A model generated the notes under the pieces. The model saw only the letters and a list, made by a program, of their open reading frames with translations. It did no database searches and was not told the DNA's origin. From Haliotis cracherodii (lineage: Eukaryota), in assembly GCF_022045235.1 (NCBI RefSeq), contig NW_027266264.1:46562001-46626000 (forward strand): DNA of 64,000 bases. The letters run 5' to 3'. Position numbers and translations under genes: made by a program. Below, piece after piece: positions 376 to 11,159 of this stretch; position 1 is the first letter of the stretch, and every line of letters starts with the position of its first letter.

Positions 376-468
376 GGCAGAGGTTCCTGTTGAATGGAGA
401 TATTTTAGGTCTAGACAACTTAAGGCGAGTTCGTGTGTTGACACAAGACCGACTTGGAACACTTAAGG
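376..468 (+). CDS. PTCD2: PTCD2-like gene, first coding exon visible in window (5' exon(s) with start codon not seen)
   Basis: ttcag/ acceptor and /gtatgt donor. Translates (G)QRFLLNGDILGLDNLRRVRVLTQDRLGTLK, resembling the PTCD2 'KRYLLT..' N-terminal region. Phase joins the next exon. Confidence 0.75.
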
Positions 469-723
469 GTATGTCAATATGTAACCATTGTTACAGGTAA
501 CACTAATAGGAGACAGAAAGCCTGTGTTTTCGCTAAATTCTTATTTAAGTTGAAGTTCACTTTACTTGAAAATATTGTCCAAGTTTCCCTCCATAGTTCC
601 AATAGTGAGTCTTGACAAAATAGGATATTTGGTCCTGCTGGGGCCAGTCATACATTGTCCTGAAGGTTGACATCTCTTGGTGTCACAAAGTTTCAACTAA
701 TGTTTTTGCTGTGATGATTCCAG

Positions 724-856
724 GAAGTTTTATGGAACGTATGCAAAATCTAACAGCTAGAGAAGGACAGACGATATTTACAGAGGACTTGAAGACGACA
801 GTAGCCGTTACAGAAACAGATGAAGATCTAGAGACACTAGTAGCCATGTTGAAAAG
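724..856 (+). CDS. PTCD2: PTCD2-like exon
   Basis: ccag/ and /gtaggg boundaries. Translates GSFMERMQNLTAREGQTIFTEDLKTTVAVTETDEDLETLVAMLKR, including the IFTEDLK motif typical of invertebrate PTCD2. Confidence 0.85.
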
Positions 857-949
857 GTAGGGGCGGATTTTTAATGAAAGTTTGAAAAGTTCAATTAATA
901 TTCATAGGAAGTGATGTATAGATGTCTGGTAGATATCAGCTGTGAAGGT

Positions 950-1520
950 TATTATCCCCTGCCAGGAAGTGGGATATAAGAACTTCCTCTGTATATTTCT
1001 TTCTGTCAACTACTCAAAGGGGACAAAATTTCTCAAGAACTGTTTAAGTTAGAGAAATGAAATTTTACACATTGATGTTACTGGTCGTGATCTCAAATGA
1101 GTTGAAAACTGGTGTTGTAAATTAATTTTTTTATAGATTTATGGCCCTTGCTCTGTCCTTTCAACTTCGGCCAAACTGCATGAAATGGGATGGTGTTCTT
1201 AGAAACAACTGAAGTTACATGAATGAAAGTTTGCATGCTTATCTGCAACATACTTGTCAAGACTGAGTTTGTAAATTGGTGACATTATTTAATTTTGAGA
1301 CAGTTGTGCTCTTGATTTATGTTATTATGCCCAGCCCAGTAGTGGGGCTGGGGAATAAAGTATGTATGTATGGGGACACATTAGTTCTTGAAAACTATTT
1401 ATGTCAGAGAAATGAAATTGTACACCCTGATTTTTTCTGATGACACATTCACTACTGTATGCACAAACAAAATTCTAATGTTCCCCATGGCTGGGGATAG
1501 TGATAACACTGTTACTTGTT
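950..1520. mobile_element. Degenerate non-autonomous Helentron/DINE-like (HINE-type) element
   Basis: 5' 'ttattatcccc..ggaagtgggatata', repeated 'agagaaatgaaatt.tacac', and a 3' hairpin 'ccccatggctgggga' followed by 'acttgtt'. Same layout as 19181-20238. Confidence 0.35.
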
Positions 1521-1629
1521 GATTTCTGAATTACCAGTCGGTATTGTGTGTGTTTTGCCTTTAGCCTATACTTGATGTGCAGTGGTTTGAGGATGGCTGA
1601 GTTGAATGTGATTGTGTATGGTTGTGCAG

Positions 1630-1756
1630 GTTTTGTGCAGACCGGGCACAAGACACGGAGGATTCTCCCCGACCGTACTGCTTCGGGCCACCAGTGTTAC
1701 GTTTGCTGCACATCAGGAATGAAGTAGACAAAGCAGTGGAGCTGTTCCAAGATGAG
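1630..1756 (+). CDS. PTCD2: PTCD2-like exon
   Basis: gcag/ and /gtgaga boundaries. FCADRAQDTEDSPRPYCFGPPVLRLLHIRNEVDKAVELFQDE resembles the PTCD2 'Y.FGP...RL......AVEL' segment. Confidence 0.88.
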
Positions 1757-1917
1757 GTGAGAGGCAAACCTCCTTGTCAGCTGCCCAACTATAGGTTTGG
1801 TGGACTGAATAAAAATGTATGAAGAATGCTGTATTATTTTGTTCAAAGTTTTATTTTATAGGAATATTTGGTAAGGTGTGATAAGTACAATGAAGATAAT
1901 GTGTTTTGGGAAATGAC

Positions 1918-4335
1918 AGTACAGCCTGTATGAAGTCAGGTATTGGTAGTAGGTAGTACAGTCTGTATGAAGTTAGGTATTGGTAGTAGGGAGTATGGCC
2001 GGTATGAAGTTTGGTATTGGTAGTAGGGAGTATGGTCTGTATGAAGTCAGGTATTGGTAGTAGGGACTATAGTCTGCATGAAGTCAGGTATTGGTAGTAG
2101 GGACTATAGTCTGTATGAAGTCAGGTATTGCTAGTAGGGAGTATGGTCTGTATGAAGTCAGGTATTGGTAGTAGGCAGTACGGGATGTATGAAGTCAGGT
2201 ATTGGTAGTAGGGAGTACGGCCTGTATGAAGTCAGGTATTGCTAGTAGGGAGTATGGTCTGTATGAAGTCAGGTATTGGTAGTAGGCAGTACGGGATGTA
2301 TGAAGTCAGGTATTGGTAGTAGGGAGTACAGTCTGTATGAAGTTAGGTATTGGTAGTAGGGAGTACGGCCTGTATGAAGTTAGGTATTGGTAGTAGGGAG
2401 TACGGCCTGTATGAAGTCAGGTATTGCTAGTAGGGAGTATGGTCTGTATGAAGTCAGGTATTGGTAGTAGGCAGTACGGGATGTATGAAGTCAGGTATTG
2501 GTAGTAGGGAGTATGGCCTGTATGAAGTCAGGTATTGGTAGGAGGGAGTATGACCTGTATGAAGTTAGGTATTGGTAGTAGGGACTATAGTCTGCATGAA
2601 GTCAGGTATTGGTAGTAGGGAGTACGGTCTGTATCAAGTCAGATATTGGTAGTAGGGACAATAGTCTGTATAAAGTCAGGTATTGGTAGTAGGGAGTATG
2701 GTCTGTATGAAGTCAGGTATTGGTAGTAGGCAGTATGGGATGTATAAGTCAGGTATTGGTAGTAGGGAGTACGGTCTGTATGAAGTTAGGTATTGGTAGT
2801 AGGGAGTACAGCCTGTATGAAGTCAGGTATTGGTAGTAGGGAGTACGGCCTGTATGAAGTCAGGTATTGGTAGTAGGGAGTACGGCCTGTATGAAGTTAG
2901 GTATTGGTAGTAGGGAGTACAGTCTGTATGAAGTCAGGTATTGATAGTAGGGAGTACAGTCTGTATGAAGTTAGGTATTGGTAGTAGGGAGTACAGTCTG
3001 TATGAAGTTAGGTATTGGTAGTAGGGAGTACAGTCTGTATGAAGTCAGGTATTGGTAGTAGGGAGTACGGTCTGTATGAAGTTAGGTATTGGTAGTAGGG
3101 AGTACAGCCTGTATGAAGTCAGGTATTGGTAGTAGGGAGTACAGTCTGTATGAAGTTAGGTATTGGTAGTAGGGAGTATGGCCTGTATGAAGTTAGGTAT
3201 TGGTAGTAGGGAGTACGGCCTGTATGAAGTTAGGTATTGGTAGTAGGGAGTACGGCCTGTATGAAGTCAGGTATTGGTAGTAGGGAGTACGGCCTGTATG
3301 AAGTCAGGTTTTGGTAGTAGGGAGTACGGCCTGTATGAAGTCAGGTATTGATAGTAGGGAGTACGGCCTGTATGAAGTCAGGTATTGGTAGTAGGGAGTA
3401 CAGTCTGTATGAAGTTAGGTATTGGTAGTAGGGAGTACGGCCTGTATGAAGTCAGGTATTGGTAGTAGGGAGTACGGCCTGTATGAAGTTAGGTATTGGT
3501 AGTAGGGAGTACAGCCTGTATGAAGTCAGGTATTGGTAGTAGGGAGTACGGCCTGTATGAAGTTAGGTATTGGTAGTAGGGAGTACGGCCTGTATGAAGT
3601 TAGGTATTGGTAGTAGGGAGTACAGTCTGTATGAAGTCAGGTATTGATAGTAGGGAGTACAGTCTGTATGAAGTTAGGTATTGGTAGTAGGGAGTACAGT
3701 CTGTATGAAGTTAGGTATTGGTAGTAGGGAGTACGGCCTGTATGAAGTCAGGTATTGGTAGTAGGGAGTACGGCCTGTATGAAGTCAGGTATTGGTAGTA
3801 GGGAGTACAGTCTGTATGAAGTTAGGTATTGATAGTAGGGAGTACAGTCTGTATGAAGTTAGGTATTGGTAGTAGGGAGTATGGCCTGTATGAAGTCAGG
3901 TATTGGTAGTAGGGAGTACAGTCTGTATGAAGTTAGGTATTGGTAGTAGAGAGTATGGCCTGTATGAAGTTAGGTATTGGTAGTAGGGAGTATGGCCTGT
4001 ATAAAGTCAGGTATTGGTAGTAGGGAGTACGATCTGTATGAAGTTAGGTTTTGGTAGTAGGGACTATAGTCTGTATGAAGTTAGATTTTGGTAGTAGGGA
4101 GTATGGCCTGTATAAAGTCAGGTATTGGTAGTAGGGAGTACGGTCTGTATGAAGTCAGGTATTGGTAGTAGGGAGTATGGCCTATATGCAGTTAGGTATT
4201 GGTAGTAGGCAGTACGGGATGTATGAAGTTAGGTATTGGTAGTGGGGAGTATGGCCTGTATGAAGTCAGGTATTGGTAGTAGGGAGTATGGTCTGTATGA
4301 AGTCAAGTATTTGTAGTAGGGACTATGGCCTGTAT
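1918..4335. repeat. 37-bp minisatellite, ~65 copies, intronic
   Basis: Unit gtatgaagtcaggtattggtagtagggagtacggcct with point variants. Confidence 0.97.
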
Positions 4336-4602
4336 CGCCTGTAAGTTGATTTCTTGTCAGTCATTTCATTGGTCGGTCAAACTTTGCAAAAGGTTGTTCT
4401 GATATGACCCGTAATGGGATGTCCTCTGATCTTTGTTTAGCGGTAGCGAAAACTAAGATCTGATTTTAATGAGATTGGGTTTTCACTTGTCTAACCCTGA
4501 TTTGCCAAAAGCATGCTTTTCAAAGTTTTAATTTTATTTCATATTTGGAAAACATAATTATTCTGATCAAAAGTAAAATGCCTCATGTGTTCGAGACAGA
4601 AT

Positions 4603-4763
4603 GGGGTGGTGGGGTAGCCTAGTGGTTAAAGCATTTGCTTGTCACGCCTTAGACCCAGGTTTGATTCCCCACATAGGTACGTGTGAAGCCCATTTCTGGT
4701 GTCCCTCACCGTGATATTGCTGGAATATTGCTAAAAGTGACATAAAACAATACTCTCTCACTC
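4603..4763 (+). mobile_element. tRNA-derived SINE (family A)
   Basis: A-box gtagcctagtggtt, B-box ggtttgattccc, 3' gatattgctggaatattgctaaaag and an (actc)-type tail. Second copy at 5816-5973. Confidence 0.8.
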
Positions 4764-4860
4764 TTTTGACCATAGGAATAACTTGTTTAGTATTTCCCTT
4801 TCTAATACTCAAAGATTGTCTCTGGTCACAAGTGAAGCACGATGTTGTGAGACGGCCTCT

Positions 4861-4992
4861 GAAGCTGCTTGGATGACCTAAGTTACAGTGTCTGATGTGC
4901 AGCAGTACCTGCCTTGAAGCAGCAGTAAATAAATGTGTGTAAAGGTACTGCTGCACATCAGACACTGTAACCTAGGTCATCCAAGCAGCTTC
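4861..4992. repeat. Inverted repeat, 50-bp arms (1 mismatch) with 32-nt spacer
   Basis: 4861-4910 is the reverse complement of 4943-4992 except A4881 opposite C4972. Confidence 0.95.
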
Positions 4993-5378
4993 CCAAATTT
5001 GAATTAAACCATTCCTACTTTATGCTGTTCTGGCTTTGTGGCGGTGTCTTGTATTTCACCGATAACTGGACCAATATAGAGGGAGGCTCTATGGCTTTGT
5101 TTACAATCATTGCATTGTATGCAATGTTAAACGTTAATGTTAAAATACCTCTCAAATTAGGCAAAAATATAAAATTATAAAAAACCATCCCAATTTGCCT
5201 GCCAGGTATCCTGGGATTTATATCTGTTTTGTATCCTGCTATTCACTAAGTGTGAGTAAACCATACTCACTGCCTCATGTTCCCTGGAGGGACTGAGTTT
5301 GTGTGTGGGACTCCAGCAATGGTTTCACCTGGTGCTGATTGGAAGTATGGTTGTTGAGTGTTTGTTGTGTTGTTGCAG

Positions 5379-5558
5379 AGCCTGAGGAGCCTGTTTGACA
5401 ACATCTCCAGCTACATGCTCATCATGGACATGCTGTACAAGAAGGGCCGCTACCCAGAGGTTGTCGAGTACTACAAGCAGCTAAAGGAGTTTGGTGGCGA
5501 CGACTTCAGATACCCCATCAACTGCATGACGTTGTTGTTTGCTTCATTGTATAAAATA
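5379..5558 (+). CDS. PTCD2: PTCD2-like exon containing a PPR motif
   Basis: ttgcag/ and /gtatgt boundaries. SLRSLFDNISSYMLIMDMLYKKGRYPEVVEYYKQLK...LLFASLYKI is a PPR helix-turn-helix of the 'S.N/M..MDML...G.Y' type. Confidence 0.9.
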
Positions 5559-5815
5559 GTATGTTCATAGTTTACCAATTTTGAGACAAACACTGTTATT
5601 TTCAAACTCAAGTACAAGTATATCGGACAGTTGTTGTTTGGGTCTGCCATCTTGAAAGGTACACTGTTATTGTCAATCACAAGTCAATGTATCTGCGGAT
5701 TGTTGTATTGGGGTCCACAATCTTTAAAGATATACTGTCATAATCAAGCTCCAATTCATGTGTACCATCAGTCAGTGTTATCCAGCAATATCTCTCCATC
5801 GCTGCTGTCAAATGT

Positions 5816-5973
5816 GAGGCGGTGGGGTAGCCTAGTGGTTGTCACGTCGAAGTCCCGGGTTTAATTCCCTACATGGATACAATGCGTGAAGACCATTTCC
5901 TGTGTCCCCCGCTGTGATATTGCTGGAATATTGCTAAAAGTGGTGTAAAACCGTACTCACTCTCAGTCACTCG
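5816..5973 (+). mobile_element. tRNA-derived SINE (family A), second copy
   Basis: Aligns to 4603-4763 (ggggtagcctagtggtt ... gctggaatattgctaaaag ... actcactc). Confidence 0.8.
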
Positions 5974-7309
5974 CTGCTATCAAATGTAAGGTTCCTGAAC
6001 ACGTTGAGAGTTGTTTCCATGATCCATTGTCCATCATTCATTATTACCCCTCCTGAATCAAGTAGACTCATGTTGTGGCTCATTGTCTTCTGTTTATTGT
6101 CTGTCTGGTTGTCTGTTGTTAACAGTAACCATAATACTGTTAAAAGCGGTGTTTAACCCAACTCACTCACTCACTCACAAAATGATCTCTAAGTGAAGAA
6201 AGAACTCCCTTACTTCTCTGATTATTGTTTAAGTAATAACACAACTCATGACAAATACAGTTACGTATTCTATCATAAACTACTGATGGCATAAAAAACA
6301 CCAGTAGTAACATTTTTGGTGCGTGTAATTAGGCCATTTACAAAAAAAGGTCCAGTGACAAAGTTCACAGGGGCTAATGGCTTGCACACAACTGGACATG
6401 TCATACTTGCAGGGGATATGAATATTTCATGCTTGTTTAATTTATATGCAGCAAGTATGCAGAATCAGTACTGAAAAAACAGCGTGGGTGAAAGTGCCTT
6501 GTGTGAATGTTCCAGGACAGTTTCCAGTAGCCAAAATAGTCAACACAAAACCATTGCACCCTTTTTACTCAACATTTTTATGTGAAGAATATTAGGATTC
6601 TATAGAATCAACAACAGCCACTAAATGAGTACCTAGTTCTAATGATCGTAAAGGGATTGATCGTAAAGGGGATCCAAGGGCTAAGGATAGAGTTAGGGGT
6701 AACCTTCCCTAACACTGGCGACATTTGGATTTGTTCAGCAATATCCCTAATAAACTGCATTCTTGTGCCTAATAATGAAAATTAATGAACTGGAAAAATA
6801 ATAAATGTATATCAGTTCCCATTTTTAACCATTTCAGAGACTTGAATTACGAGAAATATGAAATAAAAAATTTATAAAAAAATAAGGGCTTTCATAAACT
6901 AGCGCTTGCTCTAAAATGTGCTGCTGCAGGCTATATTTAGTAAACAAATATTCAAAACTCGCAACACTGCTGGGCTTATTCAATGACATTGCGTGTAGAG
7001 ATGATTGATCACTGGGAGGAGCTTATGCACACTCAATGACCCCTGAACCCTGGTCATTGTTTCGCGGATGTGACTGGCAACAAAATACTACAAATTACGT
7101 CATAGAGTAATGTCACATGTTTGAAAAGTTTGTGGCACTGTATTCTAAAGGTAGGCCTTTCTTCATTATGTTGAAATAATGTTGAGGTCTATGAGATTTT
7201 CTGATTGATGACATGTTTGACTGTATGGGCTTCCATGTTTGGATACTGGATGGCAGAATAACATGATTAATGCCCTGTCTTTCCTCATTCTCTGGGTTTG
7301 ATATTTTAG

Positions 7310-7423
7310 AACACAGAAGAGTCCTTGACTTTGAGTTTGAAGTACCTGAGGGATATTCAAGCAGCAAGATTCAGGCCATCAGGGCGCAGTCTGTCATTCA
7401 TCGCCGCCCTTGCGGTTAACCAG
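7310..7423 (+). CDS. PTCD2: PTCD2-like exon
   Basis: ttttag/ and cag/gtaagg boundaries. NTEESLTLSLKYLRDIQAARFRPSGRSLSFIAALAVNQ corresponds to PTCD2 'NSPES...SRRA..FA.ALALNQ'. Phase 0-0. Confidence 0.88.
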
Positions 7424-8239
7424 GTAAGGCCGTCATGTTACCTCATCACCTGAGTTAACCAGGTAAGGCAGTCATGTTACCTCATCACCTTAGTTATCCA
7501 GGTAAGGCCGTCATATTACCTTATCACCTGAGTTAACCAGGTAAGGCAGTCATGTTACCTCATCACCTGAGTTAACCAGGTAAGGCCGTCATGTTACCTC
7601 ATCACCTGAGTTAACCAGGTAAGACTGTCATGTTACCTCATCACCTGAGTTAACCAGGTAAGGCCGTCTTGTTACCTCATCACCTGAGTTAACCAGGTAA
7701 GGCTGTCATGTTGTCTCATCACCTGAGTTAACCAGGTAAGGCCGTCATGTTACCTCATCACCTGAGTTAACCAGGTAAGACTGTCATGTTACCTCATCAC
7801 CTGAGTTAACCAGGTAAGACTGTCATGTTACCTCATCACCTGAGTTAACCAGGTAAGGCCGTCTTGTTACCTCATCACCTGAGTTAACCAGGTAAGACTG
7901 TCATGTTACCTCATCACCTGAGTTAACCAGGTAAGGCCGTCATGTTACCTCATCACCTGAGTTAACCAGGTAAGACTGTCATGTTACCTCATCACCTGAG
8001 TTAACCAGGTAAGGCCGTCATGTTACCTCATCACCTGAGTTAACCAGGTAAGGCCGTCTTGTTACCTCATCACCTGAGTTAACCAGGTAAGACTGTCATG
8101 TTACCTCATCACCTGAGTTAACCAGGTAAGGCCGTCATGTTACCTCATCACCTGAGTTAACCAGGTAAGACTTTCATGTTACCTCATCACCTGAGTTAAC
8201 CAGGTAAGACTTTCATGTTACCTCATCACCTGAGTTAAG
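7415..8239. repeat. 39-bp tandem array, 21 copies, each containing the exon-end/5' splice donor
   Basis: Unit gttaaccag|gtaaggccgtcatgttacctcatcacctga. The first unit overlaps the PTCD2 exon end at 7423. Units start at 7415, 7454 and so on, with a final partial unit at 8234. Confidence 0.97.
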
Positions 8240-8699
8240 CAGTTGTGTGTGTACGGGTTATGACCTTATGGATTGTCTCAGTAAGGTGTTGAAATTTATC
8301 TTAGCTAAGATCGTTTCGAAAATCTAGGCTCTGGCCTGGAACTACTGAGCATGAGTTCAGCCTTATGGCAGGCTCTTTCATGTTTCTTGCTTCCATCATT
8401 CACATGAAATATTATATAACTGATCACTGAATCTCATTAAATCTCATTTAATTTGCCATGTCAGTTGCTTTATATTCAGTTGTGAATATTCATGATATGC
8501 CAGCAGAAGTAAATATGATTCTTTCCCCTATCTCTCACAAAGTTTATTTCAACCACAATTATTATGAATATGCTTTGATCTATTTGTTGAAAGTAGCCTG
8601 ATCTAGCCTGAGAGACATAAGACTTTAGGATTGTCGTGTCTGTAAGCATGTCAACAATATTGATGATTTGTCTGTCATTACACATCTTCTGTTTCTCAG

Positions 8700-8774
8700 G
8701 GAAAGCCAGCGACTGGCTTGGAGGTGTGCACATCTGCCCCCAATCACAGGATAGTTGGGGTGGTAAATATCAAG
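8700..8774 (+). CDS. PTCD2: PTCD2-like exon
   Basis: tttctcag/ and aag/gtaagt boundaries. Translates GKPATGLEVCTSAPNHRIVGVVNIK, phase 0-0. Confidence 0.8.
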
Positions 8775-9343
8775 GTAAGTGTGCTGGAATTTGCATCTGG
8801 AACAATTTGTTTCACCATAGACCTGTGATAGGACAAGTTGATTTTGAATCTCGAATAAGCATTGTCCGTAATTGTTTTTGAAATTATGGATTTTACTTTA
8901 GGGTAGTAACATTAATTTTCTACTAAAGTACTGTCTTCCAGAAATGCTAGAAAACTGCTTTTCTGGCTTATTTCATAAATACGAGTCATAGGACCATAAA
9001 AAGAGCATATATCAAAATAACGCGAATTTGCGCTCATCTAGCCTGTCCTAACTGACACTGTGATTACCCTTAAAATGTACTTTTACTGGTAAAATGATGA
9101 TAAACTTAGAAAATATTCGTGTGTTGTCATGCATGTATGAAATGGCCTATAACATGAGGTAATTACCTCACACAGTCCTATGCATTCTCCCAGGTGCAAA
9201 TGTCACCGAGTGGGGGCTGGTCTCAAAATATTGCTGTTATTATACTTAATTGACATGCGTTGATGAGGTAGCAATCTAGGATATGTACTGCATTATATTT
9301 GCTTGGAAACATGATGGACTAGTTAGTTATCTCCGCTGATGAC

Positions 9344-10225
9344 TAGGGCTTCAACGAGTACTCTAGTCCTCAGGGGCGGGTCGGTTCGGTTTTAGTGGGA
9401 CTCAAGTCCGTTATCAAGGACTTGAGTACTCGATAAGGGGAGATCACTCTGTTTTAATATTGTTTGAATAATGTTTTCTTTGTAGAAAGTAGATGTACAT
9501 TAGAACAATTGAGAATGTCACATAAAATATACGTAATTATTGTTTATACTTCCCGACTTTGAATGTATCAAGGCGATTATTGCTTCTTTGCTCCGACTCA
9601 AATGCCAAGTGTATTCCCTTACACAGATTAACAACTGATTAGCTGGTATATATGTGCTATTTCAGTGCTTACAAATCAAGCGACAGGTCGACAGTTTGGT
9701 ACAGTTTGAAAACGTAACCAACTCATGAATGAATGAACTTATAGAACTACATTTCCATATTTAACAGCCTTATTCTTGCAGTCCAGCAGCTGTGTATACG
9801 TGTATGTCACGTGATGCACATTATCGATTTTCTTCCTACGAATTACTGTTTGTGCTTGTTGGCAGGTGTCGAATGAAATGCTGATCGTCAGAAAAAAACT
9901 TGGTTTGTGTTCAATATGTATTGTAGTATTTGTAGACGTGACGTAATGTTTTTTAAGGTCGTGATAAGGACTAGTGCAGTTACAAGCAAACTTTAACACT
10001 GAACACTTCCATACACTTGGACAGTTAAACAAGTTCCATAGACGCTTTCTATTTACATTTCAGTTTAGTTCAATTATACTTATAACATGTTTTAATACTT
10101 TTAGATTGCAATTTTGATCTAATGAACCAATATTCTTAAACTAAAGTACGTCCTATTTTCGGGTACGAGTTGAGTTTCACCCCTCGGGTACTCGAGTCCA
10201 AAAAATTGGACTCGTGAAAGCCCTA
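9344..10225. mobile_element. Non-autonomous hAT-type DNA transposon (MITE) with 8-bp TSD
   Basis: Imperfect TIRs tagggcttcaacgagt / actcgtgaaagcccta. Exact flanking duplication ctgatgac at 9336-9343 and 10226-10233. Confidence 0.88.
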
Positions 10226-10399
10226 CTGATGACGTATATGAATCTGTACTTTTGAATGTTGTGTTATGTCTTGCCACGAACCCTGTACATTTAGCCAAGA
10301 TAGACACAACAAGGTTGAGCTCACGATGTCTGACTGCCGTACGTAAGACAACGTAACCGTGTTGTGCCGCCAGCACATATGTCTTGTACTTTACTGGTA

Positions 10400-10790
10400 T
10401 CTTATTCAGACGAATTTTCCTGTATGGTTGCCTTCAGACTACTCATGGTTTGGGCGACAGTATCTGATTCCCGGACGTTATTTTAACTGGAGTTATCCAT
10501 GACAATCACACTGACGTTGTTTAAAATGGGCAATAGCTGAAGTTCCAACCAGTCTATGAACACATCACCTCCTATAATTTCCTTATGAAAATCACCAGTT
10601 TTCTTTTTCGCCTCGAAAACATCCATCAATAAGCCACATATCATGGGTTGCAATGTGCAAAACAATGACACGATTACCTTTACCTGATGGTACCATGGGT
10701 GCTTTTTGTCCATCTGCCAATAGCCACATGTAGTCAGTGGAATGATTTACCAAGGTAAATCATCTGGACGCCCTGACTGTATGAATGAAA
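10400..10790 (-). mobile_element. IS630/Tc1/mariner-like transposase fragment
   Basis: ORF 10483-10713 'GDFHKEIIGGDVFIDWLELQLLPILNNVSVIVMDNSS' resembles the second-Asp 'VIVMDNA' region of DDE transposases. Confidence 0.6.
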
Positions 10791-10972
10791 TAATGTGACC
10801 TCATAGACAGGATGGAATATTTTCCCCTGAAAAGTGCTCATTCATCGCCACGTGCAGTGTATCAAAATTCCATCTCTTGGAGAGCAATAGTGCAGTCCGG
10901 GAAACATTAATTGTATCTTTAATTCCTCCCAAATTCTACTACAAGTCAGGATTACCTTCTGCTCATAAACAA

Positions 10973-11158
10973 TCCCGGTTCGACCCAATTATGTTTCTAG
11001 GTTTGTCAGCACCATACCCGTGCTCGTGGGTTTCATCGAAGTCGTAAAAGTCTGAGACCTGCATCACTTCGGGCTTTCCTCCCACATCAAGCTGACACGC
11101 CGTGATATAACTGGAATACTGTTAAAAACGGCGTTAAACCAAACTGACTCACTCACTC
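10973..11158 (+). mobile_element. SINE family B, 5'-truncated copy
   Basis: Matches 20433-20664 and 40003-40281 (tttctaggtttgtcagcaccatacccgtgctcgtgggtttca...), with an (actc)n tail. Confidence 0.8.
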
Positions 11159-11159
11159 T

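What the first reader, a model, noticed from the sequence alone, without database searches (positions are those of the whole stretch)
7415..8239. An exon's 5' splice site amplified into 21 tandem copies, each extra unit carrying an in-frame stop and self-complementary masks
Seen: the 39-bp unit spans the last 9 nt of a PTCD2 exon plus 30 intronic nt, so 20 extra CAG/GTAAG donors follow the real one. The unit is a multiple of 3, but read-through gives VRPSCYLIT*, so use of any downstream donor adds a premature stop. Each unit also contains complements of the donor: AGGTAA-n10-TTACCT and ACCTG-agttaac-CAGGT. The second hairpin is available only to the decoy donors. Inference: a natural splice-site competition array. 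It could act as an NMD-coupled, copy-number-tunable control on PTCD2 level, or as a structurally silenced decoy set.
Basis: partly seen in the sequence, partly recalled or inferred. Interest (0 to 1): 0.7.

Follow-up and report, generated by a model that had tools for sequence, protein, structure and literature searches.

The report
Abalone splice-donor "mirage" minisatellite
The end of one exon of an abalone mitochondrial-protein gene (PTCD2-like) is repeated 21 times into the next intron, splice signal included, but assembled RNA from related species joins the exons at the first signal, so it is likely a tolerated repeat of a kind already known from lancelet and human genes and common in this genome.

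Summary
The array is real: 21 units of 39 bp (7415-8242), each with CAG/GTAAG, beginning in the last 9 nt of a PTCD2-like exon. It is a "mirage" minisatellite, a class described in amphioxus and, unnamed, in human F7, CBS and IFI6. In 5 of 5 RNA-like runs of three related organisms the main contig joins 7423 to 8700; no joint from a downstream copy was listed, though contigs drop minor forms. The in-frame stop is ordinary (7 of 7 introns of the gene have one within 63 nt). Both hairpins exist and favour the real donor in folding models, but not beyond shuffled units (p 0.05-0.18), and a class-wide masking hint failed on a fresh set. The layout is common here: 21 of 92 other donor-motif arrays start at a Pfam-supported coding frame, against 1 of 79 control ends. 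Most likely the first donor wins by position and the copies are neutral; a copy-number NMD rheostat is unsupported but untested. This scan already reported the same class at other loci of this genome.

The parts
7310..7423 (+). coding exon of the PTCD2-like gene (aa 203-240 of P0001); its last 9 nt are the start of unit 1
   Evidence: RNA-like contigs cover it and continue into the neighbouring exons
7421..7429 (+). authentic 5' splice site CAG/GTAAGG (cut after 7423)
7415..8242 (+). 39-bp minisatellite, 21.2 copies, 8 unit types, divergent units at both edges
7460..8209 (+). 20 downstream copies of the donor (pseudo-sites), every 39 nt; no joint from them seen
7451..7453 (+). first in-frame TGA; would be codon 250 of 385 in any product spliced at a downstream copy
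7422..7443 (+). predicted hairpin 1 (AGGTAA-n10-TTACCT, -4.7 kcal/mol alone); covers the real donor as well; 20 of 21 units
7448..7464 (+). predicted hairpin 2 (ACCTG-n7-CAGGT, -4.7 kcal/mol alone); 19 of 20 downstream donors, not the real one
8243..8699 (+). unique remainder of the 1276-nt intron, ending in the acceptor
8700..8774 (+). next coding exon (aa 241-265 of P0001)
376..16732 (+). PTCD2-like gene in the window: exons 376-468, 724-856, 1630-1756, 5379-5558, 7310-7423, 8700-8774, 15498-15611, 16484-16732 (aa 1-25 lie upstream of the window)

Best explanation
This is a minisatellite whose 39-bp unit spans a real exon-intron junction and was likely expanded to 21 copies by ordinary repeat turnover; the main RNA of related species is spliced at the first donor, likely because that donor is made first and sits on the defined exon, so the 20 extra donors are likely silent and the array likely neutral. 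Shown: anatomy, gene, dominant junction in relatives, presence of the array in organisms A, B and C, frequency of the layout in the genome. Inferred: origin by local duplication followed by slippage or unequal exchange; first-come selection as in human F7; weak hairpins as incidental helpers; removal of rare mis-spliced RNA by NMD (stop at codon 250, 84 and 198 nt before the later junctions, so the usual 50-55 nt rule, from general knowledge, would be met).
For: RNA-like contigs X12, X13, X16 (organism B), X14 (C), X15 (D): one main contig each, depth 88-276, passes from the exon end into the 8700 exon; one search lists no joint at all. Array units are in DNA of B (contig 7132-7490, 9 differences) and in RNA-like contigs of B and C, so the junction was seen in organisms that carry the array. 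F7 minigenes: only the most upstream donor is used, whether 1 to 12 units follow, and no masking structure was found (PMC1557585). Amphioxus mirages do not disturb splicing (PMC3087553; PMC3902484). All 7 introns of the gene have an in-frame stop 1-63 nt after the donor. Masks: percentile 0.13 for donor pairing, p 0.052 for the 6-nt complement, p 0.11-0.18 in the nascent-RNA test. 21 of 92 other donor arrays start at a Pfam-supported frame (E<=0.002) against 1 of 79 control ends, in unrelated genes.
Against: No RNA run of organism A was available and all RNA evidence is assembled contigs, which drop minor forms; the runs are only guessed to be RNA. Unit-derived contigs (depth 3.9-13 each; summed 8-81 against 88-147 for the mRNA contig) are present in 4 of 5 RNA-like runs and their source (pre-mRNA, DNA, or mis-spliced RNA) cannot be told. 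NMD would hide decoy use. In IFI6 and CBS the nearest pseudo-sites are used (as cited in PMC1557585), and in F7 perfect-consensus pseudo-sites did compete; CAG/GTAAG is a strong site. All 21 donors are intact while 10 other positions vary (p 0.07). The array persists in three organisms.
Confidence: 0.75

Rival explanations
1. Leaky mirage: donors 2-3 are used at a low but real rate, as in IFI6 and CBS, and the products are cleared by NMD, giving a small allele-dependent effect on PTCD2 level that is a side effect, not a selected control.
For: Precedent cited in PMC1557585; strong donor sequence; unit-derived contigs in 4 of 5 RNA-like runs; contigs cannot show minor forms.
Against: No joint from a unit to 8700 in 4 of 4 runs; in X16 a plain intron contig has depth 2.5, and that times about 20 copies is of the order of the summed unit depth (41), a rough match only; F7 shows no effect of unit number on site choice.
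Confidence: 0.14
2. Structurally silenced decoys: the copies are kept quiet by the unit's own hairpins, and the array could expand only because of them.
For: Nascent-RNA opening energy 3.1 kcal/mol for the real donor against 5.6-9.3 for five downstream donors (15 nt past the cut, 37 C); local folding gives the real donor the highest openness; 6-nt complement p 0.052; first batch of exon-anchored arrays looked more paired than unanchored ones (mean percentile about 0.34, n=16, against 0.50, n=19; averaged by hand).
Against: Shuffled units give as large a gap in 11% of 300 trials; once 45 nt of intron exist the real donor is as closed as the copies (6.9 against 6.7-9.6); the batch effect reversed on a fresh set (0.60, n=13, against 0.39, n=33); masks are broken without compensation in units 2 and 8; most anchored arrays have no such complement.
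Confidence: 0.07
3. Selected rheostat: array length tunes PTCD2 level through donor competition and NMD.
For: Anatomy allows it; array shared by organisms A, B, C; donors intact in 21 of 21 units (p 0.07); summed array depth over flank differs between X1 and X7 (about 6-7x against up to 37x), a hint of length variation only.
Against: No decoy junction seen; the stop is ordinary; one contig of organism C carries a +5 G>T change in a downstream donor; the same layout is found in many unrelated genes; F7 precedent shows no dose effect on site choice.
Confidence: 0.04

Closest known systems
Amphioxus 'mirage' minisatellites (Adh3, globins BflGb6/BflGb9, troponin C, PGBD5); PMC3087553 section 16 read whole, PMC3902484 one passage; the original paper (Canestro 2002) was not held and is known here only through these citations
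   Same: Tandem unit spans an exon-intron boundary and repeats the splice signal; unit size inside the 10-72 bp given for Adh3; edge units diverge; normal splicing dominates.
   Different: Found in a gastropod; length or somatic instability not shown here; the unit is short of exon sequence (9 nt).
Human F7 intron 7 37-bp VNTR; PMC1557585, parts 1, 3 and 4 of 6 read
   Same: First unit holds a few exon bases plus intron start; identical pseudo-donors follow; most upstream donor used.
   Different: 21 copies against 5-9; stronger donor (CAG/GTAAG against TGG/GTGGGT); scanning was shown by minigenes there and is only inferred here.
Human CBS intron 13 31-bp VNTR (16-21 copies; PMC2630376, passages) and IFI6 (6-16), LMNB2, PDGF minisatellites (as summarised in PMC1557585)
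   Same: Similar unit size and copy number, donor in each unit.
   Different: CBS and IFI6 use two pseudo-sites besides the real one; none was seen here, at the low sensitivity of contigs.

Membership tests
mirage / junction-spanning minisatellite | tandem array of minisatellite-sized units | tested here: met
   39 bp x 21.2, 93% matches
mirage / junction-spanning minisatellite | unit spans a real exon-intron boundary | tested here: met
   exon end 7423 confirmed by P0001 and by RNA-like contigs
mirage / junction-spanning minisatellite | splice signal reiterated in the units | tested here: met
   21 of 21 CAG/GTAAG
mirage / junction-spanning minisatellite | normal splicing at the authentic site predominates | tested here: met
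   main contig in 5 of 5 RNA-like runs of organisms B, C, D; dominant form only, not organism A
mirage / junction-spanning minisatellite | length polymorphism or instability (VNTR) | tested here: inconclusive
   summed contig depth over the array differs between X1 and X7, but the tool states that this is no copy number
F7-type oriented (first-come) donor selection | next copy is used when the first is mutated; unit number has no effect | not testable with these tools
   needs minigenes
regulated unproductive splicing (AS-NMD) | alternative junction gives a premature stop well upstream of a later junction | tested here: met
   codon 250; later junctions 84 and 198 nt on; but all 7 introns would do so
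regulated unproductive splicing (AS-NMD) | the alternative junction is really used and rises under NMD block | tested here: inconclusive
   no joint in 4 of 4 runs of contigs; no raw reads or NMD-blocked samples
splice site silenced by RNA structure | pairing over the site beyond chance, kept by compensatory change | tested here: not met
   p 0.05-0.18 against shuffled units; breaks without compensation; no class-wide signal

The most novel reading that the evidence does not exclude
Abalone splice junctions seed minisatellites well beyond chance, giving hundreds of mirage arrays, and a share of them, this one included, leak to their second or third donor and feed NMD in an allele-dependent way: a genome-wide, fast-mutating layer of cis control on gene dose written in repeat copy number.
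Probability: 0.1. Interest if true: 0.7.

Novelty: new member of a known kind. Interest (0 to 1): 0.22.

Why it matters
The single locus is ordinary. What is worth keeping is the scale: mirages are in print for a handful of amphioxus and human genes, while contig C1 alone (7.5% of this genome) holds at least 14 database-supported cases from truncated lists, which would mean about 200 or more genome-wide if C1 is typical (inference). That makes abalone a natural panel for asking how the spliceosome chooses among identical donors and whether repeat length shifts expression. My searches for such a survey in molluscs found none (open-access full text only). Practical point: such arrays will confuse gene prediction and read mapping.

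Tried and rejected
No RNA holder on record was listed for the stretch and none for organism A. X15 (organism D) laid no unit contig; this is no evidence that D lacks the array. Whole-region folding pairs all 21 donors alike, the real one included (unpaired fraction 0.12-0.24). Class-wide masking: hint in the first batch, reversed in the second; rejected (units under 17 or over 60-70 nt, units whose consensus lacked the motif, and two wrongly rotated units were left out; the control-motif arrays were not folded because timed out). A rule-based exon finder was too noisy (15 of 41 donor-side ends against 16 of 79 control ends) and was replaced by Pfam. Enrichment by match count (2.7-4.0x for four donor octamers) is inflated by long arrays: by locus it was only 13 against 7 in the first 115 Mb; the period-41 search gave 12 places against 0. 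PDB searches for L050, L071 and L048 gave nothing useful. Pfam does not name PTCD2 (only weak PPR hits); the name rests on the source label of P0001. Nine frames in the long intron gave no Pfam hit. An older, longer exon duplication as the unit's origin: 7-nt run in exact register, p 0.0015 for one variant and 0.026 for the other, overall identity not significant; kept as a weak hint. PMC10078293 and PMC6905558 (passages) added nothing on junction-spanning units. No supplements were opened.

Full report
Observation. TRF finds a 39-bp array at 7415-8242, 21.2 copies, 93% matches, no indels. There are 21 CAG/GTAAG at exact 39-nt spacing from 7421. The unit was found at this locus only. Eight exons in the window form one open frame, and each translation lies in order inside P0001, a 385-aa protein that a source names pentatricopeptide repeat-containing protein 2, mitochondrial-like, of Haliotis cracherodii; P0001 passes from the 7310-7423 exon straight to the 8700 exon. 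Use of any downstream donor would still include the TGA of unit 1, at codon 250.

Which donor is used. No RNA run of the window's organism (A) was listed; six runs guessed to be RNA came from organisms B, C and D, and five of the six were laid. On the left flank, the main contigs of X16 (B) and X15 (D) cover the exon and run on into the 8700 exon. On the right flank, the main contigs of X12, X13, X16 (B) and X14 (C), depth 88-147, enter the 8700 exon from the unique exon sequence, and the table of joints is empty (12 loose ends and 29 pieces were not shown). The array is present in B (DNA contig 7132-7490 with 9 differences) and units appear in RNA-like contigs of B and C, so the junction was read in carriers. 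This shows the dominant form only: contigs drop minor variants, and NMD would lower them further. Small unit-derived contigs (depth 3.9-13) occur in 4 of 5 RNA-like runs; pre-mRNA or DNA times copy number could explain them (one plain intron contig has depth 2.5 in X16), but mis-spliced RNA is not excluded.

The stop. All 7 introns of the gene have an in-frame stop 1-63 nt after the donor; this one is at 27 nt. It needs no special explanation.

The masks. Each hairpin folds alone at -4.7 kcal/mol. In whole-region folding all 21 donors are paired alike. In a nascent-RNA model the real donor is more open than five sampled copies while up to 30 nt of intron exist (3.1 against 5.6-9.3 kcal/mol at 15 nt), and no longer at 45 nt. 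Against units shuffled around a fixed donor, this is not exceptional: percentile 0.13 for pairing and p 0.052 for the 6-nt complement; p 0.18 for decoy closure and 0.11 for the gap. To test masking as a class trait I folded other arrays. The first batch hinted at it (mean percentile about 0.34 for 16 exon-anchored arrays against 0.50 for 19 others, averaged by hand). I fixed the rule and ran a fresh batch: 0.60 for 13 Pfam-anchored against 0.39 for 33 others (46 of 51 arrays folded). The hint did not hold.

How common is the layout. Triple-donor patterns give 1590, 1841, 5658 and 1957 matches against 414, 460, 1433 and 733 for the reversed controls, while the single octamer ratio is 1.15. Match counts are inflated by long arrays; by locus the first comparison is 13 against 7, and the period-41 search 12 places against 0. 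I fetched 92 other donor-motif arrays, taken from the first 100 listed matches of each search, and 20 control arrays (one dropped, no TRF row). Frames crossing the array start on the donor side hit Pfam at E<=0.002 in 8 of 41 and 13 of 51 arrays; control ends in 1 of 79, a hit summed over repeated stretches (Fisher p 8e-4 for the first batch, 1e-5 pooled; the second batch used a looser frame rule and had no control of its own; two array starts were set by hand). Two more are supported by solved-structure matches (P4-ATPase; sialin-like). The genes are unrelated: Ras-like, PI4 kinase, aldehyde dehydrogenase, DENN, myosin, bromodomain, carbonic anhydrase, LDL-receptor repeat and others. By eye about half of the arrays start at an exon end; that count is not a test.

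How it most likely works. A short local duplication across the junction, then slippage or unequal exchange, gave the array (inferred; edge units diverge and inner variants recur). The first donor is transcribed first, lies on the defined exon and is taken; the copies lie in what is then intron (dominant junction shown in relatives; mechanism inferred from F7). Weak hairpins may help (predicted). Rare errors would be removed by NMD (inferred). Confidence 0.75; leak as a side effect 0.14; structural silencing 0.07; selected rheostat 0.04.

Comparison with what is known. Borensztajn et al. (PMC1557585; parts 1, 3, 4 of 6 read) describe the human F7 37-bp VNTR whose first unit spans the exon-intron boundary, show that only the most upstream donor is used with 1 to 12 units, find no masking structure, and list IFI6, CBS, LMNB2 and PDGF as like cases, two of which use the nearest pseudo-sites; perfect-consensus pseudo-sites did compete. 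Ebner-type globin work in amphioxus (PMC3087553, section 16 read) names such arrays mirages and reports no disturbance of splicing; PMC3902484 (one passage) says the same. The original mirage paper was not held. The array meets four of five mirage features tested; length polymorphism is inconclusive. It works like F7 as far as seen. It is not shown to be a case of regulated unproductive splicing or of structure-silenced sites.

Novelty. New member of a known kind. Earlier notes of this scan report the same class at other loci of this genome; I had reached the mirage reading before that look-up, and they are not independent support. Searches for a mollusc-wide description found none, within open-access full text; supplements were not opened and could hold such lists. 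The genome-wide abundance is the part that deserves follow-up. Interest 0.22.

Noticed in passing
G000, loci L041-L081 and L102-L152: Donor-spanning arrays are frequent genome-wide: 23 of 92 sampled have database support for a coding exon ending in the first unit, some with over 100 copies (L054 ZP domain, 117; L061 Ras-like, 116).
   Followed up: partly
L047 and L133 (G000:C1 about 80.284 and 80.292 Mb): Two different donor arrays about 8 kb apart on the same strand, both after P4-ATPase-like exons (L047 by PDB match, L133 by eye): likely two mirages in one gene.
   Followed up: no
L057 and L109: Related 47-bp units reading as the same exon-end peptide at distant places on C1; paralogous genes that each carry an array at the same junction, either inherited or independently expanded.
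   Followed up: no
window 1918-4335: A second array in the same gene (37 bp x 65), 160 nt inside an intron, with 35 CAGGTATT and 24 TAGGTATT donor-like motifs and no tie to an exon end.
   Followed up: partly
window 7390-7414 against 7429-7453: The unit's intronic part resembles the exon upstream in exact 39-nt register (7-nt run in one variant), so the first duplication may have covered about 34 exon bases plus GTAAG; weak.
   Followed up: partly
window 7424-7431 and 8700-8707: Intron start and next-exon start match at 6 of 8 bases, so aligners overrun the junction by 8 nt (seen).
   Followed up: yes
window 11000-14700: GC-richer 3.5-kb stretch in the long intron with broken frames that looks by eye like a decayed retrotransposon; nine frames gave no Pfam hit.
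   Followed up: partly
L071, opposite strand (1725-1889 +): Probably a mirage on the strand opposite to the search motif, after an exon with a weak lectin-domain hit (E 0.012); its unit also holds a complement of its donor.
   Followed up: partly
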